NCBI GenBank assembly: GCA_947475765.1
Contig: CANJMM010000001.1
Span: forward strand, 876 to 64,875
Length of the DNA: 64,000 nt
Source of the DNA: Legionellales bacterium
GTDB taxonomy: Bacteria > Pseudomonadota > Gammaproteobacteria > Berkiellales > Berkiellaceae
Reading direction: 5' to 3'
Under the pieces are notes generated by a model that did not search any database, was not told the origin of the DNA, and was given only the letters and a program-made list of their open reading frames with translations. The translations under genes and the position numbers were made by a program. Below, one piece after another: positions 8 to 63,810 of the stretch. How positions within the stretch are numbered: the stretch's first letter is position 1; the number at the start of each line of letters is the position of its first letter.

Positions 8-442
8 CTAAATTAAAGATTTTACTACGGTTAATATATTCATATCATTTTCACGATGATAGATCATTTTATCAAAAATAGAAGATACAATATGCAGCCC
101 TAAGCCCCCTATTTGCCTCTGTTGCACAGGATTTCTGATATTAGGCTTAGTGGGGTTAGTGGGATCAAATTCAAAACCATCGTCTTTAATCGTGATACTG
201 ACCTCACGCTTAATCATATCTATTTGAGCAGAAATATTAATATCATGATCGGCTTTATCATTATGTCCATAAGAAATGACATTGGTCACCAATTCATCCA
301 TGCACATGACAATTTTATTCACCAATGCTGGATTTTTACAATGGCTCAATAAAAAACCATCGATTTCCGTCAACAGTTTTCTTAAGTCGTCTTTTTTATT
401 TAAGATCTTCATCTCAAATAAAGTGTTAATTTGATCAGTCAT
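8..442 (-). CDS. RsbW/SpoIIAB-type anti-sigma factor serine kinase (GHKL ATPase)
   Basis: 144 aa. N-box ELVTNVISYG, G1 DDGFEFDP and G2 GGLGLHIV. Lies directly downstream of a receiver-PP2C gene. Confidence 0.75.
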   Translation of the reverse strand: MTDQINTLFEMKILNKKDDLRKLLTEIDGFLLSHCKNPALVNKIVMCMDELVTNVISYGHNDKADHDINISAQIDMIKREVSITIKDDGFEFDPTNPTKPNIRNPVQQRQIGGLGLHIVSSIFDKMIYHRENDMNILTVVKSLI

Positions 443-468
443 ACCTATTTTTCTTCCCTGCCTTTAGT

Positions 469-1617
469 TTAGCCGCCAATGTAGCGAATCGCCAACATCG
501 TAATATCATCACTTTGCTCCGCGCTAAGTGTAAAACCTTTAAGTTCGGCCTCAACCTTTTCAATGGTGTTTTTAGCACTTAAGTCTACATTATTTTTCAA
601 TACAGCTTGCAAGGCAACTTCTCCAAAACATTTGTCTTCTAAATTCATGGCTTCCGTTACGCCATCTGTATATAAAAACAGCAAGTCATTTTTTTTCAAT
701 TCAATGGTATTCTCTTGAAATCTATCGAGTGGCAAAATACCTAAAGCCATATCTTTGGTTGTGGGCAACATGGATATCTGCCCACTAGAGACTAATATAG
801 GCGGATTATGCCCGCCATTTGAATAAATAAATCTTCCCGTTTTAACATTTAAAATACCATAAAAAGTGGTTACAAACATATTATTTGAATTCGACTGCTC
901 TAATAATACATTCACTTTTTCTAAACATTTTCCTGGCGAAGTTTCCTTTGTTGCATGAGAACGAATTAATGTTCTTGATACCGTCATAAATAAAGCTGCA
1001 GGCACGCCTTTTCCCGACACATCTGCAATAACCAGCCCTATTTCTTCTTTGTTTATCCAAAAAAAATCATAAAAATCGCCGCCTATTTCTTTGGCAGCCG
1101 TCATCTTAGCCTGTACTTGGATAGACTCATTACTGATAAATTCTTTTGGTAAAATAGATTGCTGAATATCTCTGGCAACATTTAATTCATACAACAAACC
1201 TTCTAGTTTGTTTTTGTTTTTTTCTGCTTTAAGTAACTGTTGAATATGCTCCAATGTTTTATTAATTGTCGTCGTTAAATCTTCAAAATTAATCGGCTTT
1301 GTTACAAAATCAAATGCCCCTCTATTCATTGCCGTTCGAATATTATTCATGTCCCCATAAGCCGAAACAATAATAGCCATTACCTCTGGGTATTCTTTTT
1401 GTATATTATCTAATAAAGTTAACCCATCCATTTCTGGCATGTTAATATCTGAAATCACCATTCTGATCCCCGAATCTTTACTTAATTTATCTAAAGCTTC
1501 GATTCCATTTTTAGCAAAAAACAAAATAAACTCATTTTCTTTGAGTTGACGACGAAACCGTTGCTTCATCAGCAACTCCACATCTGGTTCATCATCGACT
1601 ATTAATATCTTAATCAC
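469..1617 (-). CDS. Response-regulator receiver fused to PP2C/SpoIIE serine phosphatase (RsbU-like)
   Basis: Receiver strings ILIVDDEPD, ISDINMPEMDG and TKP. PP2C strings GGDFYDF, ADVSGKGVPAA, YTDGVTEA and DDITMLA. The ORF-track start at 1683 runs into the upstream kinase gene. GTG at 1617 preceded by AAGGAGA is the more likely start. Confidence 0.85.
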   Translation of the reverse strand: MIKILIVDDEPDVELLMKQRFRRQLKENEFILFFAKNGIEALDKLSKDSGIRMVISDINMPEMDGLTLLDNIQKEYPEVMAIIVSAYGDMNNIRTAMNRGAFDFVTKPINFEDLTTTINKTLEHIQQLLKAEKNKNKLEGLLYELNVARDIQQSILPKEFISNESIQVQAKMTAAKEIGGDFYDFFWINKEEIGLVIADVSGKGVPAALFMTVSRTLIRSHATKETSPGKCLEKVNVLLEQSNSNNMFVTTFYGILNVKTGRFIYSNGGHNPPILVSSGQISMLPTTKDMALGILPLDRFQENTIELKKNDLLFLYTDGVTEAMNLEDKCFGEVALQAVLKNNVDLSAKNTIEKVEAELKGFTLSAEQSDDITMLAIRYIGG

Positions 1618-1645
1618 ACGATCTCTCCTTATGAACAATAAATAC

Positions 1646-2551
1646 TTATATCGGCAATATAATCGTAAACTCAGTAAATTCACCTGGCTGAGAATTTACT
1701 GTAATGCTCCCATGGTGTTGATTTATAATAATATCATGGCTAATATACAACCCTAATCCGGTTCCAATGCCCAAAGGCTTTGTAGTATGGAACGGCTTAA
1801 ACAAATTTTGTTTAATTTCCTCAGACAAGCCATTGCCATTGTCTCGTATTTTAATCACCACTTGTTTTTTATCTGGATCATTTTTTGTTGTTAGTTCCAT
1901 GGTGGGTTGGTAGCCATTATTTTCTTTGTTTTTATTTTTTTTATCATGCAAAGCATAACAACCATTATTAATAATATTTAAAAATACTTGCCCAAGTGAC
2001 TGAGGCGACACCATGATTTTTCCCACGCTTGAGTCAAGATTTTTCTTAATAGAAAGATTAAAGCTCACATCTTGAGATCGGATGCCATGATAGGCCAAAT
2101 TCATATACTCTTCGAGTAATTGATTAATGTCTGTTGGTTCTTTGGCTACTTCTTGCTGCCTTGCTTGCATCAACATGGTTTTAACCGTGTTTTCAGCACG
2201 TTTACCATGCTCATGAATTTTAATGTTATTTTGCTCAATATCGTCTATTATTTCATTCCAATTAGCTATAGCTTCTTTATTTTCATCTTGAGGATATTTA
2301 TCTTGTATTTCTTTTTTCAAGTCTTCCAATAGCTGAACATTTATTTCAGAAAAATTATTAATAAAATTAAGTGGGTTTTTGATTTCATGGGCAATGCCCG
2401 CCAATAACAAGCCTAATGATGCAATTCTTTCTTGCTCCATTAATTTTTTTTTCAAGGTTTCTATTTCTTGAATTTCTTGAAGTTCTTGAATTGGCTGTGT
2501 CGGCTCAATCAAAGATTTTAGCCAGCGCTTAACAAACAAATACCCTTTCAC
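1646..2551 (-). CDS. Cytoplasmic sensor histidine kinase (HisKA + HATPase, no TM segment seen)
   Basis: H-box GIAHEIKNPLNFI, N-box NIINNGCYAL, G1 DNGNGL and G2 GTGLGLYIS. Only a short, probably coiled-coil N-terminus (QELQEIQEIETLKKKL). Confidence 0.85.
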   Translation of the reverse strand: MKGYLFVKRWLKSLIEPTQPIQELQEIQEIETLKKKLMEQERIASLGLLLAGIAHEIKNPLNFINNFSEINVQLLEDLKKEIQDKYPQDENKEAIANWNEIIDDIEQNNIKIHEHGKRAENTVKTMLMQARQQEVAKEPTDINQLLEEYMNLAYHGIRSQDVSFNLSIKKNLDSSVGKIMVSPQSLGQVFLNIINNGCYALHDKKNKNKENNGYQPTMELTTKNDPDKKQVVIKIRDNGNGLSEEIKQNLFKPFHTTKPLGIGTGLGLYISHDIIINQHHGSITVNSQPGEFTEFTIILPI

Positions 2552-2677
2552 CCTAACTCCTGGATAGCTAGATATATATTCAGCTATTTTAATTCAGTTT
2601 ATGCATACTTTTTACTTCTACTTCTGCTGATTCGGCTGACATATCACTTAACTTTATTTTTTTAATTTAAAGCTTGT

Positions 2678-4060
2678 TCATTCAGGAAATATTTTACCAG
2701 GGTTTAATATATTCAGTGGGTCGAATGCTGTTTTAATTTTCTTCATAAAATCGAGGGTAACCGTATCTAACTCTTTGTGAATATAGCCTTTTTTTTCTAT
2801 GCCGACTCCATGTTCCCCTGATAAAGTGCCCTTCAGTGATATCACTTTATCAAAAATCTGATCCAAGCAAGCTTTTGCTTTAAGCCCCTCAATGGGATGA
2901 TTTGGGTCAACCAATAAATTCACATGCAGATTCCCATTTCCAGCATGACCAAAACTCACAATAGGAAAATCAAAGGCTTTAGATTGCTCATCTAAAAAAT
3001 CGATTAAATTCGCCATTTCTGATACAGGCACAACAATATCTTCATTAATTTTATTAGGGGACAAGGTTCTTAGGCTTTGAGAAAGCGATTTTCTGGCCTG
3101 CCATAATAGCTCTTGATCTTGTTTATTTTTCGCCAATTGAAAATCAATTAACTCTGGCAGACTGGCTGCCTGTTTGATAGCCTCAATATTGCTATCAATT
3201 GCCGCAAGTGGGCCATCTACTTCTAACATTAACATGGCTTTAGTGGAATCAGGCAACCAACCAGGATTATTATTTTTAATGATATTCACACAATGATGAT
3301 CTGCAAATTCTAGTGCACAAGGGGTAACTGCTTGCCCCATAATCTTGGCAACGGCTTTCAGGGCACTTTGATTGCTGCTAAATAAGGCTCTCATCGTTGC
3401 TGTTTTTTCAGGAATGGGGCTTAATTTTAAAATTGCCTGAGTAATAACCCCCAAAGTCCCTTCTGAGCCTATCATTAACCGAACTAAGTCATAGCCCACG
3501 ACACCTTTTGTGGTATAAACACCTGCTTTTATTATTTGGCCTTCTGCTGTGACAAAAGTCAAACCTAAAACATTGTCTCGGGTTGTGCCATATTTAACCC
3601 CTCTTGGGCCTGCTGCATTACAGCCTAAATTTCCACCTATACAAGAATACGCGCTACTGGTGGGATCGGGTGCCCAAAATAAGCCGTGTTTTGCTGCGGC
3701 TATTTGCACCTCTGAGTTCAGCACACCAGGCTCAACGACCATATAGCGATTTTCTGGAGAAATTTCTGTAATTTGATTCATTCTTTCTAAAGATAAGATA
3801 ATACCGCCATATATAGGCAACGTAGCCCCAACAGAGTTAGTTCCCCTGCCACGAGTGATAAGTGGCAACTTAAATTCAGAACATAATTTAAGCAATTCAA
3901 CAATTTGAAGTAACGTGGTCGCAAATATCACCGCATCGGGCAAATATTGTTTACGGGAATTATCATAGCCATATGCCAGACAATCGGCAGGATCGGTGAG
4001 GACCATTCCCGCTGAAAAAAAAGGCATTAATTTTTTTTCAAATTCAGCGGGTAATGGCAT
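2678..4060 (-). CDS. FAD-linked oxidase, GlcD / D-lactate dehydrogenase family
   Basis: 460 aa. FAD-binding strings ITRGRGTNSVGATLP and C-terminal GTLSGEHGVGIEKK. Confidence 0.85.
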   Translation of the reverse strand: MPLPAEFEKKLMPFFSAGMVLTDPADCLAYGYDNSRKQYLPDAVIFATTLLQIVELLKLCSEFKLPLITRGRGTNSVGATLPIYGGIILSLERMNQITEISPENRYMVVEPGVLNSEVQIAAAKHGLFWAPDPTSSAYSCIGGNLGCNAAGPRGVKYGTTRDNVLGLTFVTAEGQIIKAGVYTTKGVVGYDLVRLMIGSEGTLGVITQAILKLSPIPEKTATMRALFSSNQSALKAVAKIMGQAVTPCALEFADHHCVNIIKNNNPGWLPDSTKAMLMLEVDGPLAAIDSNIEAIKQAASLPELIDFQLAKNKQDQELLWQARKSLSQSLRTLSPNKINEDIVVPVSEMANLIDFLDEQSKAFDFPIVSFGHAGNGNLHVNLLVDPNHPIEGLKAKACLDQIFDKVISLKGTLSGEHGVGIEKKGYIHKELDTVTLDFMKKIKTAFDPLNILNPGKIFPE

Positions 4061-4072
4061 AATATTAAGCCT

Positions 4073-4107
4073 ATTTATAATAATTTATAATAATTTATAA
4101 TAATTTA
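4073..4107. repeat. Intergenic tandem repeat, 10-mer atttataata x3.5
   Basis: Three perfect copies at 4073-4102 plus a 5-nt partial copy, read directly from the sequence. Confidence 0.9.
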
Positions 4108-4108
4108 A

Positions 4109-4690
4109 TTAGGTCGGCATATATTCAAATATTTTCACGACTTTTTTAACGCCTTTAACGTGTCTTGCAATATCCACTGCAATGCTTTCTTCCTCTTTAC
4201 TGATAATGCCCATTAAATACACCACTGAATTTTCTGTGATAACTTTGACCCGAGTCGCATTAATTTTATCCGCTTGCATCATCATTGCTGCTTTTACTTT
4301 AGTGGTTAAAACTGAATCAGTAGAACGCTCTAATAAGCTAATAACTGGCTCATAGGTTAATTCATTGATGATTTTATTCACTTTAGGGATTTGTTTTATT
4401 TCAGGGATAATTTTATGCACAAAAACATCATTAGGAACTTGCCCCAATAACAACACATTGCCATTATAACTCACAATATTAACATGCACTTTTTCACGCT
4501 GATGGCTTGGGGTTAAGGCATCTACAATATTTTTAGCTTTATATTCTATTGAGCTGTCTTCTACTACCGCGCCCGTTGTACGTCTATCGTGTGAGACGAT
4601 GGCACCTGTGGTTGCTGCTGTGCCTGCCACCACGGCAACACATCCTGATAAAGTCATGCAAATAGTTGCTAATACTAATACAGACCGCAT
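4109..4690 (-). CDS. dolP: BON-domain outer-membrane lipoprotein (DolP/YraP)
   Basis: Lipobox MTLSGC. Length fits two BON domains. Conserved yraN-diaA-dolP neighbourhood. Confidence 0.8.
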   Translation of the reverse strand: MRSVLVLATICMTLSGCVAVVAGTAATTGAIVSHDRRTTGAVVEDSSIEYKAKNIVDALTPSHQREKVHVNIVSYNGNVLLLGQVPNDVFVHKIIPEIKQIPKVNKIINELTYEPVISLLERSTDSVLTTKVKAAMMMQADKINATRVKVITENSVVYLMGIISKEEESIAVDIARHVKGVKKVVKIFEYMPT

Positions 4691-4709
4691 AAAAAACTCC
4701 TCTCTTGTA

Positions 4710-5342
<633 letters not shown>

Positions 5343-5353
5343 CTATATTTTAC

Positions 5354-5758
5354 TCAAAATGCATTTTTTATCCAGGTTATTTTCAGATCAGGGGCAAGGC
5401 CTTCTATAGTCACCACATCAAATCGAGAAAACAGATAGTTAGATAACCCGAACTTCTGAAGATGATAGCTCAAAAAAAACTCAGCTGTTCGGCTTAATTT
5501 TTGCTGTTTAAAAAAATGAATGGTTTCGGCTGCCGACATAAAACGGGTATTCTTTCGGTAGCGCACTTCAACAAAAACCAGTGTCTGACTATCTAGCATA
5601 ATCAGATCAATTTCACCCATTTTACAATTAAAATTTTGCGTAATCCGTTTTAAGCCTTTATGTATCAGATATGCTAGCGCCATTTCTTCATATTGTTGAC
5701 CCAGCGCTCTTTTAGGGCCAAGACTCAATTTTGTTTTAATTTGATTTAATATCACCAT
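5354..5758 (-). CDS. yraN: YraN family (UPF0102) endonuclease-like protein
   Basis: GEIDLIMLD...VFVEVRYRK...RFDVV core typical of YraN. Confidence 0.8.
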   Translation of the reverse strand: MVILNQIKTKLSLGPKRALGQQYEEMALAYLIHKGLKRITQNFNCKMGEIDLIMLDSQTLVFVEVRYRKNTRFMSAAETIHFFKQQKLSRTAEFFLSYHLQKFGLSNYLFSRFDVVTIEGLAPDLKITWIKNAF

Positions 5759-5887
5759 AATAGAGATATAACTATATTTTTAATCAGAAGCAATAAGTAG
5801 CTTGGCTAATTAGGATATTTTGACTAAATTAATAAATAATCAGCTTTAAAAAATATAATACCCTGATTAAGATAACAGGATAAAATT

Positions 5888-6340
5888 ATGCACAGTTCCA
5901 TAAATGCTTCTAGCCTATTTAATTTTGTTGTTTTATTCACTCTTTCGATGCTTATCTCAACGGTATGTCATGCTAAAAGTATTCAAGATATACTGAAACC
6001 GAGTCAAAATACTTTTGATTGGCTTGATAAATTAGAGGCACTCGACTCACTAGAAAGCGATGAGCCCATAAATCACGCAGATAAAAAAAGATTAAGGCAG
6101 CAAGATAGCCTTTCCTCTGAATCCCAAGAATGGATAAAAACACAAACAAAAGCACTTCGCTTATTCAGCACCATTCAGATAAGCGATCACTTTTCAATGA
6201 AACCAGGGAAAATTAAATCAAAGCCCTTAAAACTATCGGATATTTCCGCTTATTATGCTTTAGAAAGCATTGGGGAGCAAAATGAACCTTCTGGCTCAAA
6301 AAAAGCCTACGGTTTAAAATTTCATTACGATTTTAAATAA
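5888..6340 (+). CDS. Small hypothetical secreted protein
   Basis: AGGA 8 nt upstream of the ATG. N-terminal signal-like segment FVVLFTLSMLISTVCHA-KS. I recognise no family. Confidence 0.5.
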   Translation: MHSSINASSLFNFVVLFTLSMLISTVCHAKSIQDILKPSQNTFDWLDKLEALDSLESDEPINHADKKRLRQQDSLSSESQEWIKTQTKALRLFSTIQISDHFSMKPGKIKSKPLKLSDISAYYALESIGEQNEPSGSKKAYGLKFHYDFK

Positions 6341-6361
6341 TTTTAATTTTTAGTTTTCTTT

Positions 6362-7687
6362 TCAGCCAAACAATCGACGCAAGCAACCCCCATCACTTTT
6401 TCTTCTCTTAGGCGAGTTTTGTTCTGCTACTAATTCTGGTTCTGCTTCTGGCTCTGCTTTTTCAAGCGCCTTTCTTTTCGGCCTTTCCTCAAAAATCAGG
6501 GGGGCAGGCGGATTTTGTAATAGAATACATGCTTGTTCTGCCGTCAATCGTTCTTCCCTATTCACTTTTAATAATCCTTCTATCAAGACAGAAGGTAATT
6601 TCATGTTGTGATGCAACTGGTGTAATACTATGCCTATGGCCCACATATCATTGGATTTATGTGGATAAAGATACTCTGGCTTTGGATCAAGCAATTCTCC
6701 TAATTCTTTCCCATAACTTGGAAAAGCTTTATCATAATAATACTCATGCATAAAAGATTTGGGATCTTTTTTAATTGCGGCAATTTCAGGCGACTCATAC
6801 TGTCTGGTTGAAATGGCTTCATAATTATACGGCCTCTTTTCTGAATCCAAAAAAGTCATCCCGAAATCAGCCAATTCTAATCGATAGCCTCCCTCTACGG
6901 GATCAGAAAAAACCAAAATATTATCTGGTTTAATATCTTGATGAATGGCACCTGCATCATGCATGGCTTTTACCGCGGTTAATAATTGCATGGCCATCTT
7001 ATGTAATTGTTCAGGCCTTAACGTTTTTCCCTCTGCCGTTTTCAAGAAACTAGACAACATGCCTTTATCTGCCCAACGTGAGTAAAAAGAGCGCTTTTTA
7101 TCGTAAGGCGTTTGATTTGAAGGCCGAATTCCAGGCTTATCAATAACTTTCCCTAAACTAGTTAAAGTAAGGCAAGGGCTTTTTCCCATATATTGAATGG
7201 CTTTTTGGGGCACTTCGACCTCCCACTTTTCTTTAGAAAAATTATCTTTTTTCGTTGCATAAAAAACAGAATTGGCAAATTTTTCTGGGTTCACCTCGTC
7301 AATACGCCAAGCGACTTTTGTTGTTTTAAATGTCCCTGAGAAAACCTCGGGATTTAAGCGCTTAGACACATTAACTTGATCTTTACTTTTTGTTTCCAAT
7401 ATTAACATAATCTCATCTGAACGTGGGTCAAAAATAAGATTAAGCGTTCTATTTAAGTTGGTTTTTTCCTTACCTAAACGGCACGGTTGGCCTTTATTTA
7501 AATCTCGCTTTAAAACAGACTGATTGCTCAAAATATAGGCATAAATTTCTTGCAGACTTTCAACTGAAACCAAGCCTACCAAATCACCTGGCACGATATG
7601 GGATTCAGTCAAAAAGTGTAATCTTTGTGTCACCCTATCAAAAAAAGCATTCACCTTCTGATTATTATTTTTTTTTGCTCTTGGCAT
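6362..7687 (-). CDS. Eukaryotic-like (Hanks-type) Ser/Thr protein kinase, paralogue 1
   Basis: Catalytic loop IHQDIKPDNILV, LADFG, YESPE, NDMWAIGIVL and REERLTAEQA, plus a hinge-like string. Roughly 120 aa of unassigned N-terminal region. Confidence 0.85.
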   Translation of the reverse strand: MPRAKKNNNQKVNAFFDRVTQRLHFLTESHIVPGDLVGLVSVESLQEIYAYILSNQSVLKRDLNKGQPCRLGKEKTNLNRTLNLIFDPRSDEIMLILETKSKDQVNVSKRLNPEVFSGTFKTTKVAWRIDEVNPEKFANSVFYATKKDNFSKEKWEVEVPQKAIQYMGKSPCLTLTSLGKVIDKPGIRPSNQTPYDKKRSFYSRWADKGMLSSFLKTAEGKTLRPEQLHKMAMQLLTAVKAMHDAGAIHQDIKPDNILVFSDPVEGGYRLELADFGMTFLDSEKRPYNYEAISTRQYESPEIAAIKKDPKSFMHEYYYDKAFPSYGKELGELLDPKPEYLYPHKSNDMWAIGIVLHQLHHNMKLPSVLIEGLLKVNREERLTAEQACILLQNPPAPLIFEERPKRKALEKAEPEAEPELVAEQNSPKRRKSDGGCLRRLFG

Positions 7688-7689
7688 GA

Positions 7690-9069
7690 CTAACTCCTCA
7701 TTCTTTTTATAACGCGGTTAAAGCAACCATCAGTAGGCAAAACTTTTCGTTTTTTAGACTGAACTTCAGGCTCTTCAGGCTCTTCAGGCTCTTTCTCATC
7801 AGAAATTGATTTTAATGCTTGATCTGCTGTCCATCTGTCTTCTCTCTTAATGCTTAATAAGCCTGATAAAACCCAATCGGGTTCAATAACTTTTTTAGCA
7901 TCAGGGAATTTCCCCTGATGATACAACTGATATAAAACAATCCCTAATGCAAACATATCATTGGCTGGATGTGGCACACGATATTCTGGCTTTGTAGCAA
8001 ACTGGGGGCTTGCTAAATCTCTGCCATAACTTGGCACTCCTTTTTTATAAAAATAATCATGGCAAACGGAATAAGGATTTTGGTAGCATAAAGCTATTTC
8101 TGGAGACTCATATTGTAAAGTTGCCAATGCTCCTAATTGATGGTTAAAATTAACAACACTTTTTTTAAGGCTAAAACCAAAATCGGCTAACTCCACACGA
8201 TAATCTAAACCATCTGAAAAGACTAAAATGTTTTTTAACTTAATATCTTGATGAATGGCATGAGCATCATGCATGATTTTGACTGCTTGCAATAATTGTA
8301 TTGCTATTTTGTCTCGTTGTTCACGCGTGAGCATTTTTCCCTTAGGGCTTTTTAAAAAATCTTCTAAATCTCCCCCATCAGCCCATTTAGAATAAAAAGA
8401 TATTTTTCTAGCATAAAGTACTTTTTTCTGATTATTTACACGCAATCCAGATTTAGGAATAACGGCCCCTAAACTCGGGCAATTGAGCACTGGGGGCTTT
8501 TGTTTTTCTTGAACAAAACTTTGTGCAAACCTTGCTTCTACAAGAGCCCTTGTAAGCAAGGCTTGTTCTGATGCTGGATTTGATTTCGATACATAAAAAA
8601 CCGCATTCGCCCATTTTTCTGGTGATTCACCATCAATACGCCAAGCTGGCTTTGTGGTTTTAGACGCACCTGAGAAGGTTTTCATGCTAAGCTCTTTGAC
8701 TACCTGGCCGTTCAACTCTTCTTTTTTTCTTTTTGTTTCCAATATCAAATAAAAATCGCTTTTTTCTATATCAAAAATGATATTTAAAGTCCGAGGCAAT
8801 TGCGTGTGTTTTTTATCCAAACGATAAGACTGTGCGTCTTCTAAAACGGCATCATTAAAATGCTCTGTTAAAAGTGGACGCCTACCAATCACAAATTGAT
8901 AACAACGCTTAAGATCTTCAACTGAAATCAAGCCTATTAATGCTTTTGGCAAGCATCCCGTTTTATCGATTTCAGCCTTGTTTTTCTCTAATCGTTCAAA
9001 AAATAAGCTTATCATCTTCGATTTTTTTGAAGCTTTTTGAAAATTAAAATTAAACAGAATACTTGGCAT
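7690..9069 (-). CDS. Eukaryotic-like Ser/Thr protein kinase, paralogue 2
   Basis: IHQDIKLKNILV, LADFG, YESPE, NDMFALGIVL and WADGGDLEDFL. About three quarters identical to paralogue 3 by eye. Confidence 0.85.
   Translation of the reverse strand: MPSILFNFNFQKASKKSKMISLFFERLEKNKAEIDKTGCLPKALIGLISVEDLKRCYQFVIGRRPLLTEHFNDAVLEDAQSYRLDKKHTQLPRTLNIIFDIEKSDFYLILETKRKKEELNGQVVKELSMKTFSGASKTTKPAWRIDGESPEKWANAVFYVSKSNPASEQALLTRALVEARFAQSFVQEKQKPPVLNCPSLGAVIPKSGLRVNNQKKVLYARKISFYSKWADGGDLEDFLKSPKGKMLTREQRDKIAIQLLQAVKIMHDAHAIHQDIKLKNILVFSDGLDYRVELADFGFSLKKSVVNFNHQLGALATLQYESPEIALCYQNPYSVCHDYFYKKGVPSYGRDLASPQFATKPEYRVPHPANDMFALGIVLYQLYHQGKFPDAKKVIEPDWVLSGLLSIKREDRWTADQALKSISDEKEPEEPEEPEVQSKKRKVLPTDGCFNRVIKRMRS
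7764..7790 (-). repeat. In-frame 9-mer cttcaggct x3 (encodes EPEEPEEPE) in kinase 2
   Basis: Three perfect copies read directly. Absent from the paralogous position in kinase 3. Confidence 0.9.
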
Positions 9070-9186
9070 AAAAACCCCTACTGACTACTTATAACATAAA
9101 ATTTTATCTTTTGACTAACTTAAAATACTATAAGCCAATAAACTTAAATTTAATATAGCCTAGGGGTGACTATCCGATGAACGGTA

Positions 9187-9216
9187 TTAAAGCGCCGATA
9201 AGTGGTATGTAGATGC
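9187..9216 (-). pseudogene. Orphan copy of the last 9 codons plus stop of galU
   Basis: The reverse complement reads ASTYHLSAL-stop, versus ASPYHLSAL-stop at the true galU end (10685-10714). It sits in the kinase 2 / kinase 3 spacer. Confidence 0.7.
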
Positions 9217-9231
9217 ATGGTTTTGACATGG

Positions 9232-10572
9232 CTAACTTCTCATTCTTTTTATAATGCGGCTGAAACAACCATCCGTAGGGCAAACTTTTAGTTTTTTAGG
9301 CTGCTCTTTCGCATCAGAAATTGATTTTAAGGCTTGATCTGCTGTCCATCTGTTTTCTCTCTTAACTCTTAACAATCCTGATAGAAGCAAATCCGGTTCA
9401 ATCTGTTTTTTAACAGAAGGAAATTTCCCTTGATGATATAACTGATGTAAAACAACCCCTAATGCAAACATATCATTGGCTGAATGTGGCACACCATATT
9501 CTGGCTTTGCAAGAATCTGGATTGCTAGATCTCTGCCATAACTTAAGGCTCTTCTATGATGAAAATAATGATGTTGAGCAGAATAGGGATTTTGGTAAAA
9601 TGAAGACATTTCTGGAGACTCATATCCTAGAGTTGCCAATGCTTCTCCCTCATAACTAAAATTAAAAAAACTTTTTTTAACGGTTAAACCAAAGTCTGCC
9701 AATTCCACACGATAATTCCCAGTGCCATCTGAAAAGACTAAAATATTTTTTAATTTAATATCTTGATGAATGGCGCCAACATCATGCATTATTTTGATTG
9801 CTTGCAATAATTGCAATGCTATTTTATCCCGTTGTTCAAGGGTGAGCATTTTTCCCTGAGGGCTGTTTAAAAAATCCTCTAAATCTCCCCCATCGGCCCA
9901 TTTAGAATAAAACGATATTTTTCTAGCATAAGCTTCTTTTCCTGTTCTGCGCATGCCCGACTTAGCAATAACCGCCCCCAAACTGGGACAATTTAGAACT
10001 GAGGGATTCTGCTTTTCTTGAACAAAACTTTGCGCAAGTCTTGCTTCTGAAAACGCCTCTGCAAGCAAAGCTTTTTCTGAGTCTGGTGTGGATTTAGGTA
10101 CATAAAAAACGGAATTTGCCCATTTTTCTGGTGCTTCACTATCAATACGCCAAGCTGGCTTTGTTGTTTTAGAGGTACCTGAGAAAGTTTTCATGCTAAG
10201 CTCTTTGACTACTTGGCCATTAAAACCTTCTTTTTTTCTTTTTGTTTCCAAAATCAAACAAAGATCTGTTTGTTCTATATCAAAAATGATATTTAAAGTC
10301 CGAGGCAATTTTGTATTTTTTTTATCCAAACGATAAGATGGTGCCTCTTCTAAAGCTGCATCATTAAAATGCTGTGTTAAAATATGACGCTTATCAATCA
10401 TAAATTGATAACAACGCTTAAGATCTTCAACTGAAATCAAGCCTATTAATTCTTTTGGCAAGCATCCCGTTTCGTCGATGTCAGCCTTGTTTTTCTTTAA
10501 TCGTTCAAAAAATAAGTCTATCATATTCGATTTTTTTAAAGGTTTTTGAAATTTAAACAGCATACTTGGCAT
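9232..10572 (-). CDS. Eukaryotic-like Ser/Thr protein kinase, paralogue 3
   Basis: IHQDIKLKNILV, LADFG, YESPE and NDMFALGVVL. The upstream spacer is homologous to that of paralogue 2. Confidence 0.85.
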   Translation of the reverse strand: MPSMLFKFQKPLKKSNMIDLFFERLKKNKADIDETGCLPKELIGLISVEDLKRCYQFMIDKRHILTQHFNDAALEEAPSYRLDKKNTKLPRTLNIIFDIEQTDLCLILETKRKKEGFNGQVVKELSMKTFSGTSKTTKPAWRIDSEAPEKWANSVFYVPKSTPDSEKALLAEAFSEARLAQSFVQEKQNPSVLNCPSLGAVIAKSGMRRTGKEAYARKISFYSKWADGGDLEDFLNSPQGKMLTLEQRDKIALQLLQAIKIMHDVGAIHQDIKLKNILVFSDGTGNYRVELADFGLTVKKSFFNFSYEGEALATLGYESPEMSSFYQNPYSAQHHYFHHRRALSYGRDLAIQILAKPEYGVPHSANDMFALGVVLHQLYHQGKFPSVKKQIEPDLLLSGLLRVKRENRWTADQALKSISDAKEQPKKLKVCPTDGCFSRIIKRMRS

Positions 10573-10684
10573 AAAAACTCCTACTGACTACTTATAAAAA
10601 GGCTTACCTTTGTGGCTAACTTATAATTATAGGCAATAAAAGTAAATTTAATATACAGTAGGGGTGACTATCCGACGAACGGTA

Positions 10685-11614
10685 TTAAAGCGCCGATAAG
10701 TGGTATGGAGAGGCAGTCTGTAAAAATTTTTTAAGCTCATTTTTGACTTCAGGATGTTTTAAAGCATAGTGCAAAGTCGCCAAAACATAGCCGGCTTTGC
10801 TACCACAATCAAAACGCTGCCCCTCAAAACGATAGGCATAAACTTCATTTTTACTGTAGGTCAATAATCTTGAAATGGCATCGGTTAATTGTAATTCGGG
10901 CTTATGCTGCATACCCGATAAATCATGTAACTTCATCATATCTGCTAAAATAAGCAAAATATCTGCATCCAAAATATAACGACCCACCACGCCAAAGTCA
11001 GAGGGGGCTTCTGCTGCAGTTGGTTTTTCAATAATACCGTTTAATTTGGCAATTCGGCTAAAGCTTTCTGCCACAGAGATAACACCATATTGATTCAGTT
11101 TATGAAAAGGAACGGTTTCTACGGCAATAATAGATTGCTGTATTTCTTGATAAAGTGAAACCATTTGCGCTAAGCACCCTTGAGGGGCATCAATTAAATC
11201 ATCGGCCAGAATCACCGCAAAAGGATCGCTGCCAATCAAAGATTTTGCGCACAATATCGCATGGCCTAAACCTAAAGGCTGAGACTGCCTCAAGTAAATA
11301 CAATTGATTTTATCAGGATGAATGGCTTTTACCTGTTTGAGTAAATCAAATTTTTCAGTTTTTTCAAGATGATATTCTAATTCAAAATTGGTATCAAAAT
11401 GATCTTCTATGGCGCGTTTAGAATGATTCGTAATAAAAATCAAATCTGTAATACCCGCCTCAATGGCTTCTTCCACAGCATATTGAATAAGCGGCTTATC
11501 GACAATGGGTAACATTTCTTTAGGATTTGCTTTAGTGGCAGGTAAAAACCGTGTCCCTAACCCAGCTACCGGAAAAACTGCTTTGGTTATTTTTTTATTT
11601 TTCACTGATTCCAT
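10685..11614 (-). CDS. galU: UTP-glucose-1-phosphate uridylyltransferase
   Basis: VFPVAGLGTRFLPATKANPKEMLPIVDKPLIQY. The ATG at 11614 overlaps the upstream stop as TAATG. The ORF-track start at 11623 is a TTG. Confidence 0.9.
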   Translation of the reverse strand: MESVKNKKITKAVFPVAGLGTRFLPATKANPKEMLPIVDKPLIQYAVEEAIEAGITDLIFITNHSKRAIEDHFDTNFELEYHLEKTEKFDLLKQVKAIHPDKINCIYLRQSQPLGLGHAILCAKSLIGSDPFAVILADDLIDAPQGCLAQMVSLYQEIQQSIIAVETVPFHKLNQYGVISVAESFSRIAKLNGIIEKPTAAEAPSDFGVVGRYILDADILLILADMMKLHDLSGMQHKPELQLTDAISRLLTYSKNEVYAYRFEGQRFDCGSKAGYVLATLHYALKHPEVKNELKKFLQTASPYHLSAL

Positions 11615-37976: not shown

Positions 37977-38864
37977 CTAACTCTTTAATCTTTTGGCAGC
38001 AGCTTCATCAGTCGCCTGCTCTGCCTCAACAACATCTTCATCTTGCATGCTCGTCTCATCATTCTGAGCCTCATGACCCTCATGAGGACGTTTCTGTCCT
38101 TTTCTTTGTTCTTCAGCAATACCAGAACTAGAACCAGAACTAGAACGAGAAAACATCACTACTGCTGGTACTGCTGCTGCTGGCGCCTCTTCTTGTTGCA
38201 CTGGCACACTACTAACTGGCTCACGAACTGGCTCAGGAGCAACAAACACTGCTGCTGCTTGTTCTACTCTTCTCTCTTCTCTGATCTCTTCTCTGATCTC
38301 TTGTATTCTTGGCACACTTCTTCTTTGTAATCTAGCTAATAATGGCACTTCAGCTTCAGGCTGATCCTGTTCTTCAATCTCAATAATATTAAGGGGTTTT
38401 TCTGATAGCATATATTTTAAAGCGCTAAAAAGCGCATTTTTATAGACCATTGAAGCCGCCGAAAAAAGCACGGCATTATAGGGCGATAGTATCTCAAGCT
38501 CTATGAGTTTTACTGATGCCACTATATTTAAAGCATAATAAGCATACGCTGTTATATTTCCTGCATTTTCTTGAATATGTTGCATGATATCCTTTCGCAC
38601 TTTAAAAATCTTAGTTGCCAATAAAGCAGGTGCTAATAATGAGCTGCCCATCGATAAAAATGCGAATAAAGGACTTTGAGTACTATGTAGCGTAGTCATG
38701 TAACTTGGCATTCTAAGGTATGCCTGTGCTTGAACGACACTCAAAGTCGCTATAATAGGATAAGCATAATCTTTATACTCTTTGACAAGGCTTAGGCCTG
38801 CCTTAAGACCCTGAAAAAATTTATTATTTAAAAATCTATTTAAAAATCTCACAATATACTCCAA
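37977..38864 (-). CDS. Hypothetical membrane protein with acidic low-complexity C-terminal half
   Basis: The ORF opens with TTG and has no convincing RBS, so the start is uncertain. Hydrophobic N-terminal half, then REEIREE, Ala/Pro/Val-rich, SSSGSSSG and acidic tracts. Ends in KRLKS. Confidence 0.55.
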   Translation of the reverse strand: MEYIVRFLNRFLNNKFFQGLKAGLSLVKEYKDYAYPIIATLSVVQAQAYLRMPSYMTTLHSTQSPLFAFLSMGSSLLAPALLATKIFKVRKDIMQHIQENAGNITAYAYYALNIVASVKLIELEILSPYNAVLFSAASMVYKNALFSALKYMLSEKPLNIIEIEEQDQPEAEVPLLARLQRRSVPRIQEIREEIREERRVEQAAAVFVAPEPVREPVSSVPVQQEEAPAAAVPAVVMFSRSSSGSSSGIAEEQRKGQKRPHEGHEAQNDETSMQDEDVVEAEQATDEAAAKRLKS

Positions 38865-52180: not shown

Positions 52181-52210
52181 ATTTTTATTTATTTAATTTT
52201 TATTTATTTA
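52181..52210. repeat. Tandem 15-mer atttttatttattta x2 between the TPR gene and ald
   Basis: Two perfect copies read directly. The second overlaps the TPR gene stop. Confidence 0.9.
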
Positions 52211-54126: not shown

Positions 54127-55082
54127 TCTACTTCAACTGCCCTGTTTTCTTGTATAATATTTAGTTCAAGTTTTTGTATTATGCTATAAAGTGTAGGTCT
54201 GGTAATACTTAATATTTCTGCGGCTTTACTCACATTGCCATGACTTATTGCAAATGCTTTTAAAATCACTTCTCGCTCTGCCCTTTCTCTGGCTTCTTTT
54301 AAATTTAAGGCACTGAAGGCATTTTGCTTCGCATTGAAATTTAAATCTTTGGAAGTAATCCAAAAGCCGTCATTTAAAATAACGGCTTGTTGTATTTTAT
54401 TTTTAAGTTCTCGAATATTGCCCGGCCAATCATAATCAAGCAAAGACACCATCGCCTCTGAGGTAAAGCCTTTGAATGTTTTTTTAAAGATTTGTTGATA
54501 ATGTTCTAATAATTTATCGGCAATATAAATAACATCTTGTCCACGTTGTCTTAAAGCTGGCAAACAAAGCACTAATTCTGCAATACGGTAATATAAATCT
54601 TCTCTAAATTGATACTTACTTAATTTTTCAGCTAAATTTTGATGGGTAGCACAAATAACCCTTACATTGACTGCAATGCTTTGCCTACCACCAATTCTTT
54701 CAATTTTTTTCTCTTGCAAAAAACGCAGTAATTTCGGCTGTAAGCTTAAAGGCAAATCCCCTATTTCATCTAAAAATAAGGTTCCACCAGTGGCCTGCTC
54801 AATTTTACCTTTGGTTTGTTGATGCGCACCTGTAAAAGCCCCTTTTTCAAAACCAAATAACTCACTTTCTAATAAATTTTCTGGGATTGCCGCACAATTA
54901 ATGGCAATAAATGGCCCTTTAGAATACAGGCTATATTGGTGCAAGGCATTGGCAATTAACTCTTTTCCTGTGCCACTTTCTCCTAATAGCAATACACAAG
55001 CAGAGACAGGGGCAATTTTAAACACTTTTTTTATCATTGCCTGCATATTTAAATCTTGAGTATATAACCCCTCAATATGCAT
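54123..55082 (-). CDS. Sigma-54-dependent transcriptional activator lacking an N-terminal regulatory domain
   Basis: 319 aa. Walker A GESGTGKE, GAFTGA loop and C-terminal Fis-type HTH GNVSKAAEILSITRPTLYS. Only 11 nt separate it from the upstream gene, which leaves no room for a receiver domain. Confidence 0.85.
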   Translation of the reverse strand: MHIEGLYTQDLNMQAMIKKVFKIAPVSACVLLLGESGTGKELIANALHQYSLYSKGPFIAINCAAIPENLLESELFGFEKGAFTGAHQQTKGKIEQATGGTLFLDEIGDLPLSLQPKLLRFLQEKKIERIGGRQSIAVNVRVICATHQNLAEKLSKYQFREDLYYRIAELVLCLPALRQRGQDVIYIADKLLEHYQQIFKKTFKGFTSEAMVSLLDYDWPGNIRELKNKIQQAVILNDGFWITSKDLNFNAKQNAFSALNLKEARERAEREVILKAFAISHGNVSKAAEILSITRPTLYSIIQKLELNIIQENRAVEVE

Positions 55083-55093
55083 GTTATTGTTAA

Positions 55094-63698: not shown

Positions 63699-63810
63699 GG
63701 TGGTGATCCCATTAGCCACACCCCGGCACACATTCAGATACTACCGCTGCTCCCTTCCGGGCCTAACGGGGTTCGCATCCTACTGTTGCGAGGGGACCAA
63801 CAAGATCACC
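63699..63810 (-). ncRNA. ffs: Signal recognition particle RNA (4.5S RNA)
   Basis: The minus strand reads GGUGAUCUUGUUGGUCCCCUCGCAAC...GGCCCGGAAGGGAGCAGCG...GUGUGCCGGGGUGUGGCUAAUGGGAUCACCACC. It is collinear with E. coli 4.5S RNA as I recall it, including the GGAA tetraloop region and the GUGUGCCGGG block. The 5' GGUGAUC pairs with the 3' GAUCACC. The ends are approximate. Confidence 0.85.

What the first reader, a model, noticed from the sequence alone, without database searches (positions are those of the whole stretch)
6362..10572. Three tandem eukaryotic-like non-RD Ser/Thr kinases with an unassigned N-terminal domain
Three consecutive minus-strand genes (441, 459 and 446 aa) each carry a complete Hanks-type C-lobe. 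The motifs are H-Q-D-I-K-(P/L)-(D/K)-N-I-L, A-D-F-G, Y-E-S-P-E, N-D-M-(W/F)-A-(I/L)-G and a late R-x-(T/S)-A-(E/D)-Q-A. The HRD arginine is replaced by Gln in all three, so they are non-RD kinases. A divergent N-lobe is recognisable (FSG[TA][FS]K Gly-loop-like, VFY..K, GGDLEDFL hinge). It is preceded by about 120 residues with no motif I recognise. All three end in an acidic tract, then a K-[KR]-[RL]-K stretch, then a conserved D-G-x-C-[FL]-x-R motif. The cluster, together with a small secreted orphan (5888-6340), replaces the region where lpoA/rsmI normally follow yraN. Tandem amplification of a eukaryotic-like kinase in a housekeeping context suggests an expanding effector family; this is inference.
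Basis: partly seen in the sequence, partly recalled or inferred. Interest (0 to 1): 0.65.

Follow-up and report, generated by a model that had tools for sequence, protein, structure and literature searches.

The report
Tandem effector-like kinases with WNK-style lysine
An uncultured relative of the amoeba-infecting bacterium Berkiella carries three side-by-side copies of a rare eukaryotic-type protein kinase. Its ATP-holding lysine appears to have moved to the position otherwise known only from animal and plant WNK kinases, so this would be a second, independent example of that active site.

Summary
Three minus-strand genes (441, 459 and 446 aa) each pass the Pfam Pkinase threshold and carry HQD, DFG, SPE and DxWxxG motifs.

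The "unassigned" N-terminus is part of the kinase module. It consists of a three-helix cap, extra beta-strands and a very divergent N-lobe (AlphaFold pLDDT 82–87). Its weak best structural match is the cap plus N-lobe of Legionella LegK4.

The family is rare: 230 clusters among 1.84 billion representatives. Every hit whose source genome was identified comes from a Berkiella-like genome.

Main new result: the canonical beta3 lysine is Ala or Ser, and a lysine occupies the third-glycine position of the G-loop, as in WNK1. In 182 near-complete units, 152 have this arrangement. A single clade of 23 keeps GxGxFG plus the beta3 lysine.

K2 and K3 are a segmental duplicate that includes the promoter. 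A 97%-identical strain lacks K3. A more distant relative has a four-unit array at the same galU–yraN site.

Host delivery by Dot/Icm is inferred, not shown. Verdict: a new variant of eukaryotic-like bacterial kinases.

The parts
6362..7687 (-). K1, 441-aa kinase. It has an N-terminal helical cap, an extended N-lobe, a C-lobe and a disordered basic tail.
   Evidence: ORF. Pfam Pkinase 67.1 bits. AlphaFold model with pLDDT 81.7 and pTM 0.80. Foldseek matches full kinase domains.
7690..9069 (-). K2, 459-aa kinase. Its stop codon lies 2 nt before the K1 start codon, and a GAGGAG Shine-Dalgarno sequence sits inside its 3' end, so K2 and K1 are probably translationally coupled.
9232..10572 (-). K3, 446-aa kinase. 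It is a paralogue of K2 (76% aa identity) and is absent from the close relative L025.
7496..7687 (-). K1 residues 1-64: predicted three-helix N-terminal 'cap'.
   Evidence: DSSP helices 2-29, 42-54 and 56-64 with pLDDT above 89. The weak best structural match of the N-half is LegK4, whose residues 1-65 form a helical cap.
7382..7399 (-). K1 LETKSK (residues 97-102): family-invariant motif at the end of an extra beta-hairpin ahead of the G-loop. E98, K100 and K102 are each kept in 56 of 57 units.
7325..7342 (-). K1 G-loop FSGTFK (residues 116-121). K121 (7325-7327) sits at the third-glycine position, equivalent to PKA G55 and WNK1 K233, and is the proposed ATP-anchoring lysine.
   Evidence: hhalign register. 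Covariation with position 140. Coordinates.
7265..7276 (-). K1 beta3 ANSV (residues 138-141). S140 (7268-7270) occupies the position of the canonical catalytic lysine, PKA K72.
6920..6943 (-). K1 catalytic loop HQDIKPDN (residues 249-256), non-RD.
8659..8676 (-). K2 G-loop FSGASK. K137 lies at 8659-8661.
8599..8610 (-). K2 beta3 ANAV. A156 is at the K72-equivalent position.
8230..8253 (-). K2 catalytic loop HQDIKLKN.
10168..10185 (-). K3 G-loop FSGTSK. K135 lies at 10168-10170.
10108..10119 (-). K3 beta3 ANSV. S154 is at the K72-equivalent position.
9745..9768 (-). K3 catalytic loop HQDIKLKN.
10573..10684 (-). Upstream region of K3, between the galU stop codon and the K3 start. It includes the Shine-Dalgarno sequence TAGGAG.
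9070..9215 (-). Duplicated copy of that upstream region in front of K2. It includes a remnant of the last ~28 nt of galU plus its stop codon (about 9174-9210).
7764..7788 (-). 9-nt tandem repeat (CCTGAAGAG, about 3 copies) that encodes K2's PEE acidic tract. K3 lacks it.
6365..6499 (-). K1 disordered C-terminal tail (residues 397-441): an acidic tract, then KRRK, then DGGCLRR.
   Evidence: pLDDT below 50 for residues 397-441. Motifs.
7693..7815 (-). K2 C-terminal tail: the (PEE)3 acidic tract, then KKRK, then DGCFNR.
9235..9330 (-). K3 C-terminal tail: KKLK, then DGCFSR. There is no acidic tract.
5888..6340 (+). Neighbouring 150-aa ORF with a signal peptide, conserved at this position beside the array in L001 and L025. 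Its functional link to the kinases is unknown.

Best explanation
The region is a tandem array of three paralogous protein kinases of the eukaryotic (Hanks) type. They are very probably catalytically active. They belong to a rare family so far identified only in Berkiella-like (Berkiellales) intracellular bacteria.

Each protein is one indivisible module of about 400 aa:
- a three-helix N-terminal cap;
- extra beta-strands carrying invariant charged residues (LETKxK, KPAWRID);
- a highly divergent N-lobe;
- a conventional C-lobe;
- a disordered, mostly basic C-terminal tail.

The catalytic loop is HQD (non-RD), so activity is probably not gated by activation-loop phosphorylation.

The canonical beta3 lysine that anchors the ATP phosphates is replaced by Ser or Ala. 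I propose that the lysine at the third-glycine position of the G-loop (K121 in K1, K137 in K2, K135 in K3) does this job, pairing with the alphaC glutamate (E156 in K1). This is the arrangement known from WNK kinases, reached here independently.

The array evolves by segmental duplication, gene conversion and copy loss at a fixed chromosomal site between galU and yraN.

By inference, the proteins are delivered into the amoebal host by a Dot/Icm type IVB system and phosphorylate host proteins. The basic tails, which resemble nuclear localisation signals, may target them to the nucleus or to membranes.

Shown: the genes, the motifs, the predicted fold, the family distribution, the duplication history and the lysine covariation. 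Inferred: which lysine contacts ATP, phosphotransfer activity, secretion, and host targets.
For: **Kinase identity**
- Pfam Pkinase scores are above threshold.
- PDB profile hits reach E = 5e-22, to CAMK-group kinases.
- Foldseek aligns 304-324 columns to complete kinase domains, with target-normalised TM-score 0.56-0.67.
- The catalytic residues are conserved across 57 units: D251 in 55, K253 in 53, N256 in 54 and D274 in 55.

**One module**
- The family HMM matches positions ~5-410 as a single stretch.
- Whole units are repeated two or three times in fusion proteins.

**Cap and N-lobe**
- The N-half model has pLDDT 87.4.
- Its top structural hit is LegK4 chain 5CKW_B over 168 columns. WNK1/WNK3 N-lobes follow at 110-120 columns, against about 90-95 for other kinases.
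- The LegK4 cap is described in PMC4588518.

**Lysine shift**
- hhalign maps G118-x-x-K121 onto PKA G52-x-x-G55 and onto WNK1 'GSFK'. It maps A138-N-S140 onto PKA A70-x-K72. The reference sequences were validated against 5W7T and 1ATP.
- The predicted secondary structure fits that register.
- Of 182 near-complete units, 152 have K/R at 121 and no K at 140; 146 of these keep the catalytic Asp and DFG-Asp.
- Another 24 have G/S at 121 and K at 140, and read as a canonical GxGxFG loop.
- Four of the six units with neither arrangement have lost a catalytic Asp or DFG-Asp.
- The WNK precedent is described in PMC1821047.

**Effector-like biology**
- The family comprises only 230 clusters in 1.84 billion representatives.
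- All 16 strong GTDB loci (of 18 returned) come from Berkiella or uncultured gammaproteobacterial/'Proteobacteria' MAGs.
- The window organism's RpsA is 76% identical to that of Ca. Berkiella aquae.
- Berkiella genomes encode Dot/Icm and 18-23 eukaryotic-like Ser/Thr kinases listed as putative effectors (PMC9803151).
- The proteins have no signal peptide, transmembrane segment or sensor domain.
- The kinases are about 45% identical between genomes whose flanking genes are 73-84% identical.
- Copy number differs between strains with 97%-identical flanks.
- K2 versus K3 gives dN/dS of 0.40, so both copies are maintained.
Against: - No experiment and no atomic coordinates were available. The contact between K121 and ATP is inferred from alignment register and covariation.
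- hhalign confidence in the N-lobe is low.
- The covariation reflects essentially one evolutionary event (parsimony minimum of 2 changes, one of them in a degenerate unit). It is therefore not statistical proof.
- K124, K100 and K102 are more strictly invariant than K121 (K in 48 of 57 units). One of them could be the ATP-binding lysine instead.
- The N-half alone has no structural match at E <= 0.001.
- No dot/icm gene lies in the 64-kb window, and the rest of this genome was not available.
- The array sits among housekeeping genes, and its GC content does not deviate from its surroundings.
- The C-terminal tails do not show an obvious Dot/Icm E-block in K3.
Confidence: 0.65

Rival explanations
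1. These are bacterial-intrinsic Hanks-type signalling kinases. They phosphorylate the bacterium's own proteins and are never secreted.
For: - The array has a chromosomal housekeeping context between galU and yraN, with GC content like its surroundings.
- No secretion-system gene lies in the window.
- A partner-switching Ser/Thr signalling module lies 4 kb away, at 8-2551.
- Many bacteria encode cytoplasmic Ser/Thr kinases.
Against: - There are no sensor, transmembrane or PASTA domains.
- The family is restricted to one lineage of obligate intracellular bacteria, at least among hits whose source was identified.
- Paralogy is high, copies turn over, units fuse, and some units are degenerate.
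- The kinases diverge far faster than their flanking genes.
- The tails are disordered and basic.
- The nearest relatives outside the family are eukaryotic CAMK-type and protist kinases.
Confidence: 0.2
2. The proteins are pseudokinases, or kinase-fold enzymes with another chemistry (AMPylation or glutamylation, as in SelO or SidJ), because the canonical beta3 lysine and the GxGxxG loop are missing.
For: - The beta3 lysine is Ser or Ala, the G-loop has a single glycine, and HRD is HQD.
- The sequence-level N-lobe is unrecognisable to Pfam and to PDB profiles.
- Clearly degenerate units exist in fusion proteins of the family.
Against: - All phosphotransfer residues of the C-lobe (HxD, K, N, DFG, SPE) are conserved at 93% or more.
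- Exactly one of the two alternative lysine positions is filled in 176 of the 182 near-complete units. Four of the six exceptions have lost a catalytic Asp or DFG-Asp. This pattern is expected for enzymes that still need the lysine.
- WNK kinases with the same arrangement are active (PMC1821047).
- dN/dS is 0.2-0.4.
Confidence: 0.1
3. The proteins are kinase components of an anti-phage defence system.
For: PADLOC and NCBIfam give weak hits to mad6, PD-T4-6, MkoA and PglW kinases.
Against: - The hits cover only the generic C-lobe, at the same weak level as Pfam Pkinase (24-64 bits), and lie far below the NCBIfam cutoffs of 460-990 bits.
- No partner defence genes (methylase, nuclease, ATPase) are nearby.
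- The family is restricted to Berkiellales, as far as sources were identified, rather than scattered by horizontal transfer.
Confidence: 0.03

Closest known systems
WNK (with-no-lysine) kinases of eukaryotes (WNK1; PDB 5W7T, 6CN9)
   Same: - The beta3 catalytic lysine is absent.
- A lysine sits at the third-glycine position of the G-loop: WNK1 GRGSFK against FSGTFK here.
- The N-lobe has extra strands. WNK1/WNK3 N-lobes give the longest kinase alignments to the N-half model.
   Different: - There is no specific sequence relationship. The hhalign score to WNK1 (110) is lower than to CDK2 (147) or PKA (122), and the top PDB hits are CAMK-group kinases.
- WNKs are RD kinases (HRD); this family is HQD.
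- The beta3 position is Cys in WNK1 and Ala, Ser or Leu here.
- The host is bacterial.
- One clade inside the family keeps the canonical arrangement, which indicates an independent (convergent) shift.
Legionella pneumophila Dot/Icm effector kinases LegK1-LegK4 (LegK4 structure 5CKW/5CLR)
   Same: - Both are eukaryotic-like Ser/Thr kinases of Legionellales-type intracellular bacteria.
- Both have an N-terminal helical cap of about 65 residues plus an extra strand that extends the N-lobe sheet.
- Both have C-terminal extensions after the kinase domain.
   Different: - The NCBIfam LegK1 model scores only 28-42 bits against a cutoff of 550.
- The Foldseek match is weak (E = 0.015, TM-score 0.30).
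- LegK1 and LegK4 use the canonical beta3 lysine.
- No four-helix bundle is predicted here.
- Translocation has not been shown for this family.
Eukaryotic CAMK-group kinases (phosphorylase kinase gamma, CaMKII, DAPK, DCLK1)
   Same: They are the best sequence and fold matches for the hinge and C-lobe: E = 5e-22 for the profile search and Foldseek E = 1e-11.
   Different: - Identity is only 15-20%.
- The N-lobe is unrecognisable at sequence level.
- This family is non-RD.
- It has a ~40-residue insert between SPE and the alphaF DxWxxG motif.
- It has no calmodulin-binding regulatory segment.
CAK-chloro subfamily of choline/aminoglycoside-type kinases (Kannan et al. 2007)
   Same: This is another reported case in which the positive charge is lost at position 72 and gained at position 55.
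   Different: That family consists of small-molecule-kinase-like ELKs, carries Arg at position 55, and is not an ePK. It was not tested here.

Membership tests
Eukaryotic protein kinase (Hanks-type) superfamily / Pfam PF00069 | Profile match above the curated threshold | tested here: met
   Scores are 67.1, 65.3 and 61.5 bits against a cutoff of 31.7. Only profile positions ~70-263 are matched.
Eukaryotic protein kinase (Hanks-type) superfamily / Pfam PF00069 | Catalytic loop HxDxKxxN, DFG, APE, DxWxxG and the alphaH-I arginine | tested here: met
   HQDIKxxN, DFG, SPE, NDM(W/F)AxG and R380 are all present, and each is conserved at 86% or more across 57 units.
Eukaryotic protein kinase (Hanks-type) superfamily / Pfam PF00069 | Bilobal fold with a five-stranded N-lobe and alphaC | tested here: met
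   The AlphaFold model has pTM 0.80. Foldseek aligns 304-324 columns to full kinase domains. This is a predicted structure only.
Eukaryotic protein kinase (Hanks-type) superfamily / Pfam PF00069 | GxGxxG loop and the beta3 VAIK lysine | tested here: not met
   The G-loop reads xSGxxK. The beta3 position is Ser or Ala in K1-K3. A sister clade of the family does meet both features.
Non-RD kinases | The arginine preceding the catalytic aspartate is replaced | tested here: met
   K1-K3 all read HQD. Across the family, Q occurs in 54 and H in 3 of 57 units, and R in none.
WNK kinase family | No beta3 lysine, with the catalytic lysine at G-loop position 55 | tested here: met
   Alignment register plus covariation. 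This is an inferred assignment, not a structural or biochemical one.
WNK kinase family | Specific sequence kinship with WNK kinase domains | tested here: not met
   hhalign scores WNK1 lower than CDK2 or PKA. No WNK appears among the top 60 PDB profile hits.
WNK kinase family | HRD catalytic loop, chloride-binding pocket, and autoinhibitory and CCT-like domains | tested here: not met
   The catalytic loop is HQD, and no additional Pfam domains were found. A chloride-binding pocket was not tested.
LegK1 (NCBIfam NF043056, Dot/Icm T4SS effector kinase) | Equivalog profile score at or above the cutoff | tested here: not met
   Scores are 28.5, 34.8 and 42.5 bits against a cutoff of 550.
LegK-type effector kinases (architecture) | N-terminal helical cap that extends the N-lobe sheet | tested here: inconclusive
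   The predicted topology is similar. The Foldseek hit to LegK4 has E = 0.015, probability 0.87 and TM-score 0.30.
Dot/Icm (type IVB) effectors | Translocation into host cells dependent on Dot/Icm; a C-terminal signal | not testable with these tools
   The evidence is circumstantial only: a Berkiellales lineage whose members encode Dot/Icm, and disordered C-terminal tails.
Anti-phage defence kinases (PADLOC mad6 / PD-T4-6 / PglW) | Full-length profile match and partner genes in the neighbourhood | tested here: not met
   Only partial C-lobe matches were found. The neighbours are galU, capD, yraN and diaA-like genes.

The most novel reading that the evidence does not exclude
A lineage-restricted family of bacterial effector kinases has independently re-invented the WNK active site, with the catalytic lysine moved from beta3 to the G-loop. 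WNKs would then no longer be the only functional eukaryotic-type kinases built this way. Because one clade of the same family keeps the canonical GxGxFG/beta3-Lys arrangement, the family offers a natural before-and-after pair for studying how such a shift evolves. A further possibility is that the shifted site confers WNK-like sensitivity to host ions, or that the NLS-like tails send the kinases to the host nucleus, which Berkiella is known to associate with.
Probability: 0.4. Interest if true: 0.75.

Novelty: new variant of a known kind. Interest (0 to 1): 0.62.

Why it matters
Eukaryotic-like kinases are a recurrent weapon of intracellular bacteria. This family has not been described in the searchable literature and has no curated model.

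If the lysine relocation is real, it breaks the long-standing view that WNKs are the only active eukaryotic-type kinases lacking the beta3 lysine (PMC1821047). It would also show that this solution is reachable by convergent evolution.

The family supplies sister clades with and without the shift. Reciprocal mutagenesis across them could test directly how a kinase tolerates moving its key lysine.

For Berkiella-like bacteria, which live in or next to amoebal nuclei, the array is a concrete candidate set of host-targeting enzymes. Its copy number changes even between near-identical strains.

Tried and rejected
- **First genome-collection scan, with K2 alone.** It found no relative. The alignment-based scan succeeded.
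- **Exact-sequence look-up of P0001.** It returned nothing.
- **Sequence profiles of the N-terminal half against the PDB.** They found no kinase, even at E <= 10. N-lobe mapping therefore had to rely on hhalign, predicted secondary structure and covariation.
- **Foldseek with the N-half model alone.** No hit reached E <= 0.001. The LegK4 and WNK resemblances are therefore leads, not proof.
- **Promoter and terminator scan.** Counts were no higher than in shuffled sequence (28 against 21.5 promoter-like sites; 5 against 4.5 terminator-like sites). No confident promoter for K2 or K3 was found, and I saw no clear PmrA-type tandem box on reading the upstream regions.
- **Viral fold library.** It returned only generic giant-virus kinases at the same level as PDB kinases, so there is no evidence of a viral origin.
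- **Defence-system libraries.** Only generic C-lobe hits. Rejected.
- **Cdc37_M Pfam hits in K2 and K3** (17.8 and 23.6 bits, both below the 25-bit cutoff). Treated as chance.
- **Literature searches for a WNK-like bacterial kinase.** These covered WNK-related terms, the bacterial Ser/Thr kinase atlas and its companion review, and a 2025 effector-kinase review. None described such a family. The library holds only open-access papers.
- **Atomic inspection of the models.** Not possible, because coordinates are not exposed.
- **K[KR]x[KR] tails.** They are enriched (36 of 170 tails, 21%, against 4.7% of background windows), but I could not distinguish a nuclear localisation signal from a membrane-binding patch or a secretion signal.

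Full report
**Observation.** Three consecutive minus-strand ORFs occupy 6362-7687 (K1, 441 aa), 7690-9069 (K2, 459 aa) and 9232-10572 (K3, 446 aa). All three pass the Pfam Pkinase threshold (61-67 bits against 31.7). The match starts only at profile position ~70, so it covers the hinge and C-lobe. NCBIfam places them in no curated family; the LegK1 equivalog scores 28-42 bits against a cutoff of 550. One detail in the finding is wrong. K3 has no acidic tract, and K2's tract is a 9-nt tandem repeat (CCTGAAGAG, 7764-7788).

**Fold and the 'unassigned' N-terminus.** I built a 23-sequence family alignment (A1). With it, AlphaFold2 gives a confident model of K1 (mean pLDDT 81.7, pTM 0.80). Only residues 103-110 and the tail 397-441 are disordered. 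Foldseek aligns 304-324 columns to complete eukaryotic kinase domains (DCLK1, CaMKII, TNIK), with target-normalised TM-scores of 0.56-0.67. Both lobes are therefore predicted. Reading the secondary structure in order gives:
- three helices (2-29, 42-54, 56-64);
- a short strand and a beta-hairpin (82-86, 93-98) ending in the invariant LETKxK;
- a disordered loop;
- the FSGxxK loop;
- strands 122-128 and 135-144;
- a long alphaC helix (147-167);
- beta4, beta5 and the hinge.

The family HMM always matches positions ~5-410 as one stretch. In fusion proteins the whole unit is repeated two or three times: 822 aa in L003, and 1319 and 901 aa in L020, plus many of P0040-P0048. The N-terminal ~120 residues are therefore part of the kinase module, not a separate domain. 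An N-half-only profile finds no PDB sequence, even at E <= 10. An N-half-only model (pLDDT 87.4) has no Foldseek hit at E <= 0.001. Its best weak hit is Legionella LegK4 (5CKW_B: E = 0.015, probability 0.87, 168 columns). WNK1 and WNK3 N-lobes follow at 110-120 columns, against ~90-95 for other kinases. LegK4 has a 65-residue helical cap plus an extra strand extending the N-lobe sheet, and the cap is needed for LegK1 activity (PMC4588518). The architecture predicted here is analogous.

**Active site.** Profile-profile alignment (hhalign) of 57 family units was run against PKA, CDK2 and WNK1. I first recalled these reference sequences from memory, then verified PKA and WNK1 as identical to 1ATP_E and 5W7T_A; CDK2 was not checked. 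The alignment places:
- FSG118-x-x-K121 on the G-loop, so that PKA G52 matches G118, G55 matches K121, and WNK1 'GSFKT' matches 'GTFKT';
- A138-N-S140-V on PKA A70-M-K72-I.

hhalign confidence is low there. Two independent observations support the register. First, the predicted strands and alphaC fall where this register requires. Second, one clade of the family (the Ca. Berkiella cookevillensis type) reads as a textbook G-x-G-x-F-G at exactly those columns and has Lys at column 140 ('WVNKV'). All other units have Lys or Arg at 121 and Ala, Ser, Leu or Thr at 140.

The counts among 182 near-complete units are as follows:

| Arrangement | Units | Notes |
|---|---|---|
| K/R at 121, no K at 140 ('shifted') | 152 | 146 keep the catalytic Asp and DFG-Asp |
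| G/S at 121, K at 140 (canonical) | 24 | 23 form one clade |
| Neither | 6 | 4 have lost a catalytic Asp or DFG-Asp |

In K1-K3 the canonical lysine is Ser, Ala and Ser respectively, and the G-loop lysine is K121, K137 and K135. [quoted passage not shown] A glutamate in alphaC (E156) is kept in 46 of 57 units.

Caveats apply. The covariation reflects essentially one evolutionary event, since the parsimony minimum is 2 changes and one is in a degenerate unit. I had no coordinates. K124, K100 and K102 are more strictly invariant than K121. Because these three, together with E98, R128 and D130, are conserved in both clades, I interpret them as a salt-bridge network stapling the extra hairpin to beta2-beta3. 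That is inference.

The HRD arginine is Gln in 54 of 57 units, His in 3, and never Arg. The family is therefore uniformly non-RD.

**Distribution and organism.**
- A word-seeded search of 5.8 billion proteins found only 39 relatives. The only one named to organism was a Ca. Berkiella cookevillensis protein.
- An exhaustive HMM search with the N-half profile found 230 clusters among 1.84 billion representatives, with no leakage into generic kinases.
- In GTDB species genomes, all 16 strong loci come from Candidatus Berkiella MAGs or uncultured gammaproteobacterial/'Proteobacteria' MAGs, often with two or three copies per locus.
- The window's RpsA is 76% identical to that of Ca. Berkiella aquae and 74-75% to Berkiella and 'Berkiellales' MAGs. 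The organism is therefore an undescribed Berkiellales bacterium.
- Published Berkiella genomes encode a Dot/Icm system. They also list 18 and 23 eukaryotic-like Ser/Thr kinases among their putative effectors (PMC9803151).
- The window itself is housekeeping chromosome (rpsA, gyrA, TCA cycle, dnaX and others) with no secretion genes.

**Array dynamics.**
- K3 and K2 align over their whole length plus ~145 nt upstream. The aligned stretch includes a copy of the last ~28 nt and stop codon of galU in the K3-K2 spacer. This is a segmental tandem duplication.
- The two copies are 76% identical at protein level. dN/dS is 0.40, and dS falls to 0.08 in the first 80 codons, which suggests gene conversion at the 5' end.
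- K2's stop codon is 2 nt from K1's start, with a GAGGAG inside K2's 3' end, which suggests translational coupling.
- A metagenomic contig with 97% DNA identity in the flanks (L025) has only the K2-like gene and K1, with no K3. Since dS between K2 and K3 (0.33) far exceeds the divergence between strains, this is most simply a copy loss.
- A more distant genome (L001-L003; flanking genes 71-84% identical) has three genes holding four kinase units at the same galU-yraN site. These are only ~45% identical to K1-K3.
- The first unit of that genome's 827-aa fusion is degenerate (R121, YQN for HQD, SNFKE for DFG), making a pseudokinase-kinase tandem.
- In the NJ tree, K2/K3 and the L001 pair are lineage-specific duplicates. 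Evolution at this fixed locus is by gene birth and death.

**Tails.** All three proteins end in a disordered tail with K[KR][RL]K followed by DG(G)C[FL]xR. The K[KR]x[KR] pattern occurs in the last 30 residues of 36 of 170 family members, against 4.7% of background windows. The exact tail is specific to the window's sub-clade. The pattern resembles a monopartite nuclear localisation signal. That would be notable for bacteria associated with host nuclei, but a membrane-binding or secretion-signal role is equally open.

**Mechanism and rivals.**
- *Best explanation (0.65).* These are active non-RD Ser/Thr kinases with a WNK-type relocated lysine and a LegK-like cap, amplified in tandem, and probably injected into the amoebal host by Dot/Icm.
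- *Rival: cytoplasmic bacterial signalling kinases (0.2).* The housekeeping context favours it. Lineage restriction, turnover, fusions, fast divergence and the lack of sensor domains argue against it.
- *Rival: pseudokinase or alternative chemistry (0.1).* The near-perfect conservation of phosphotransfer residues argues against it. So does the either/or lysine pattern.
- *Rival: anti-phage kinases (0.03).* Only generic C-lobe hits support this.

**Comparison and novelty.** In lysine placement the family works like a WNK, but it is not a WNK. It has no specific sequence kinship, it is HQD rather than HRD, and it lacks WNK accessory domains. It resembles LegK effectors in lifestyle and cap architecture but fails the LegK1 model. 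No paper in the searchable library describes a bacterial eukaryotic-type kinase with a G-loop catalytic lysine, or this family itself. I rate it a new variant of a known kind (eukaryotic-like bacterial kinases), with moderately high interest that depends on experimental confirmation of the lysine shift and of secretion.

Noticed in passing
window 5888-6340 (+): A 150-aa ORF with a signal peptide (…TVCHA|KS) is conserved at the same spot between the kinase array and yraN in L001 (128 aa, 40% identity) and in L025. It has no hit in Pfam, NCBIfam or PADLOC. It evolves as fast as the kinases.
   Followed up: partly
L001 7371-9854; L020 (1319-aa and 901-aa ORFs); P0040-P0048: Family members fuse two or three complete ~400-aa kinase units into one protein. 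In the L001 fusion the first unit is degenerate (YQN for HQD, SNFKE for DFG), giving a pseudokinase-kinase tandem reminiscent of JAK JH2-JH1.
   Followed up: partly
L025 (7681-bp ENA contig, 97% identical to window 2600-9200): This close relative has only two kinases (a K2-like gene and K1) between galU and the small ORF. K3 is missing, so copy number varies between near-identical strains.
   Followed up: yes
window 9232-10720 versus 7690-9215: Synonymous divergence between K3 and K2 is very uneven: 0.08 in the first 80 codons and the promoter region, against 0.5-0.75 mid-gene. This suggests recent gene conversion of the 5' ends.
   Followed up: partly
window 8-2551 (-): A partner-switching-type module: a HATPase_c_2 anti-sigma-like kinase, a response-regulator-SpoIIE phosphatase, and a HisKA/HATPase histidine kinase. 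It is syntenic in L001, where a STAS protein follows.
   Followed up: no
window 25027-25647, 26985-28247, 28362-29873, 37977-38864, 56934-59498: Five sizeable ORFs (206-854 aa) with no Pfam family at E <= 1e-5, scattered among housekeeping genes. They may be further lineage-specific or effector-like proteins.
   Followed up: no
window 52204-56659 (-): A PKMT-type protein-lysine methyltransferase (PKMT_2nd and MethyTransf_Reg domains, as in the Pfam family named after PKMT) lies next to a sigma-54 activator and a large TPR protein.
   Followed up: no
P0010 C-terminus; L001 fusion C-terminus: Some family members end in CaaX-like tetrapeptides (…FCSIF in P0010, …ACKKL in the L001 fusion). Together with the conserved Cys in the DGxC tail of K1-K3, this hints at host lipidation of the tails.
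   Followed up: no
window 63707-63802 (-): Bacterial small SRP RNA (Rfam RF00169, 66.9 bits). There are no tRNA genes anywhere in the 64-kb window.
   Followed up: no
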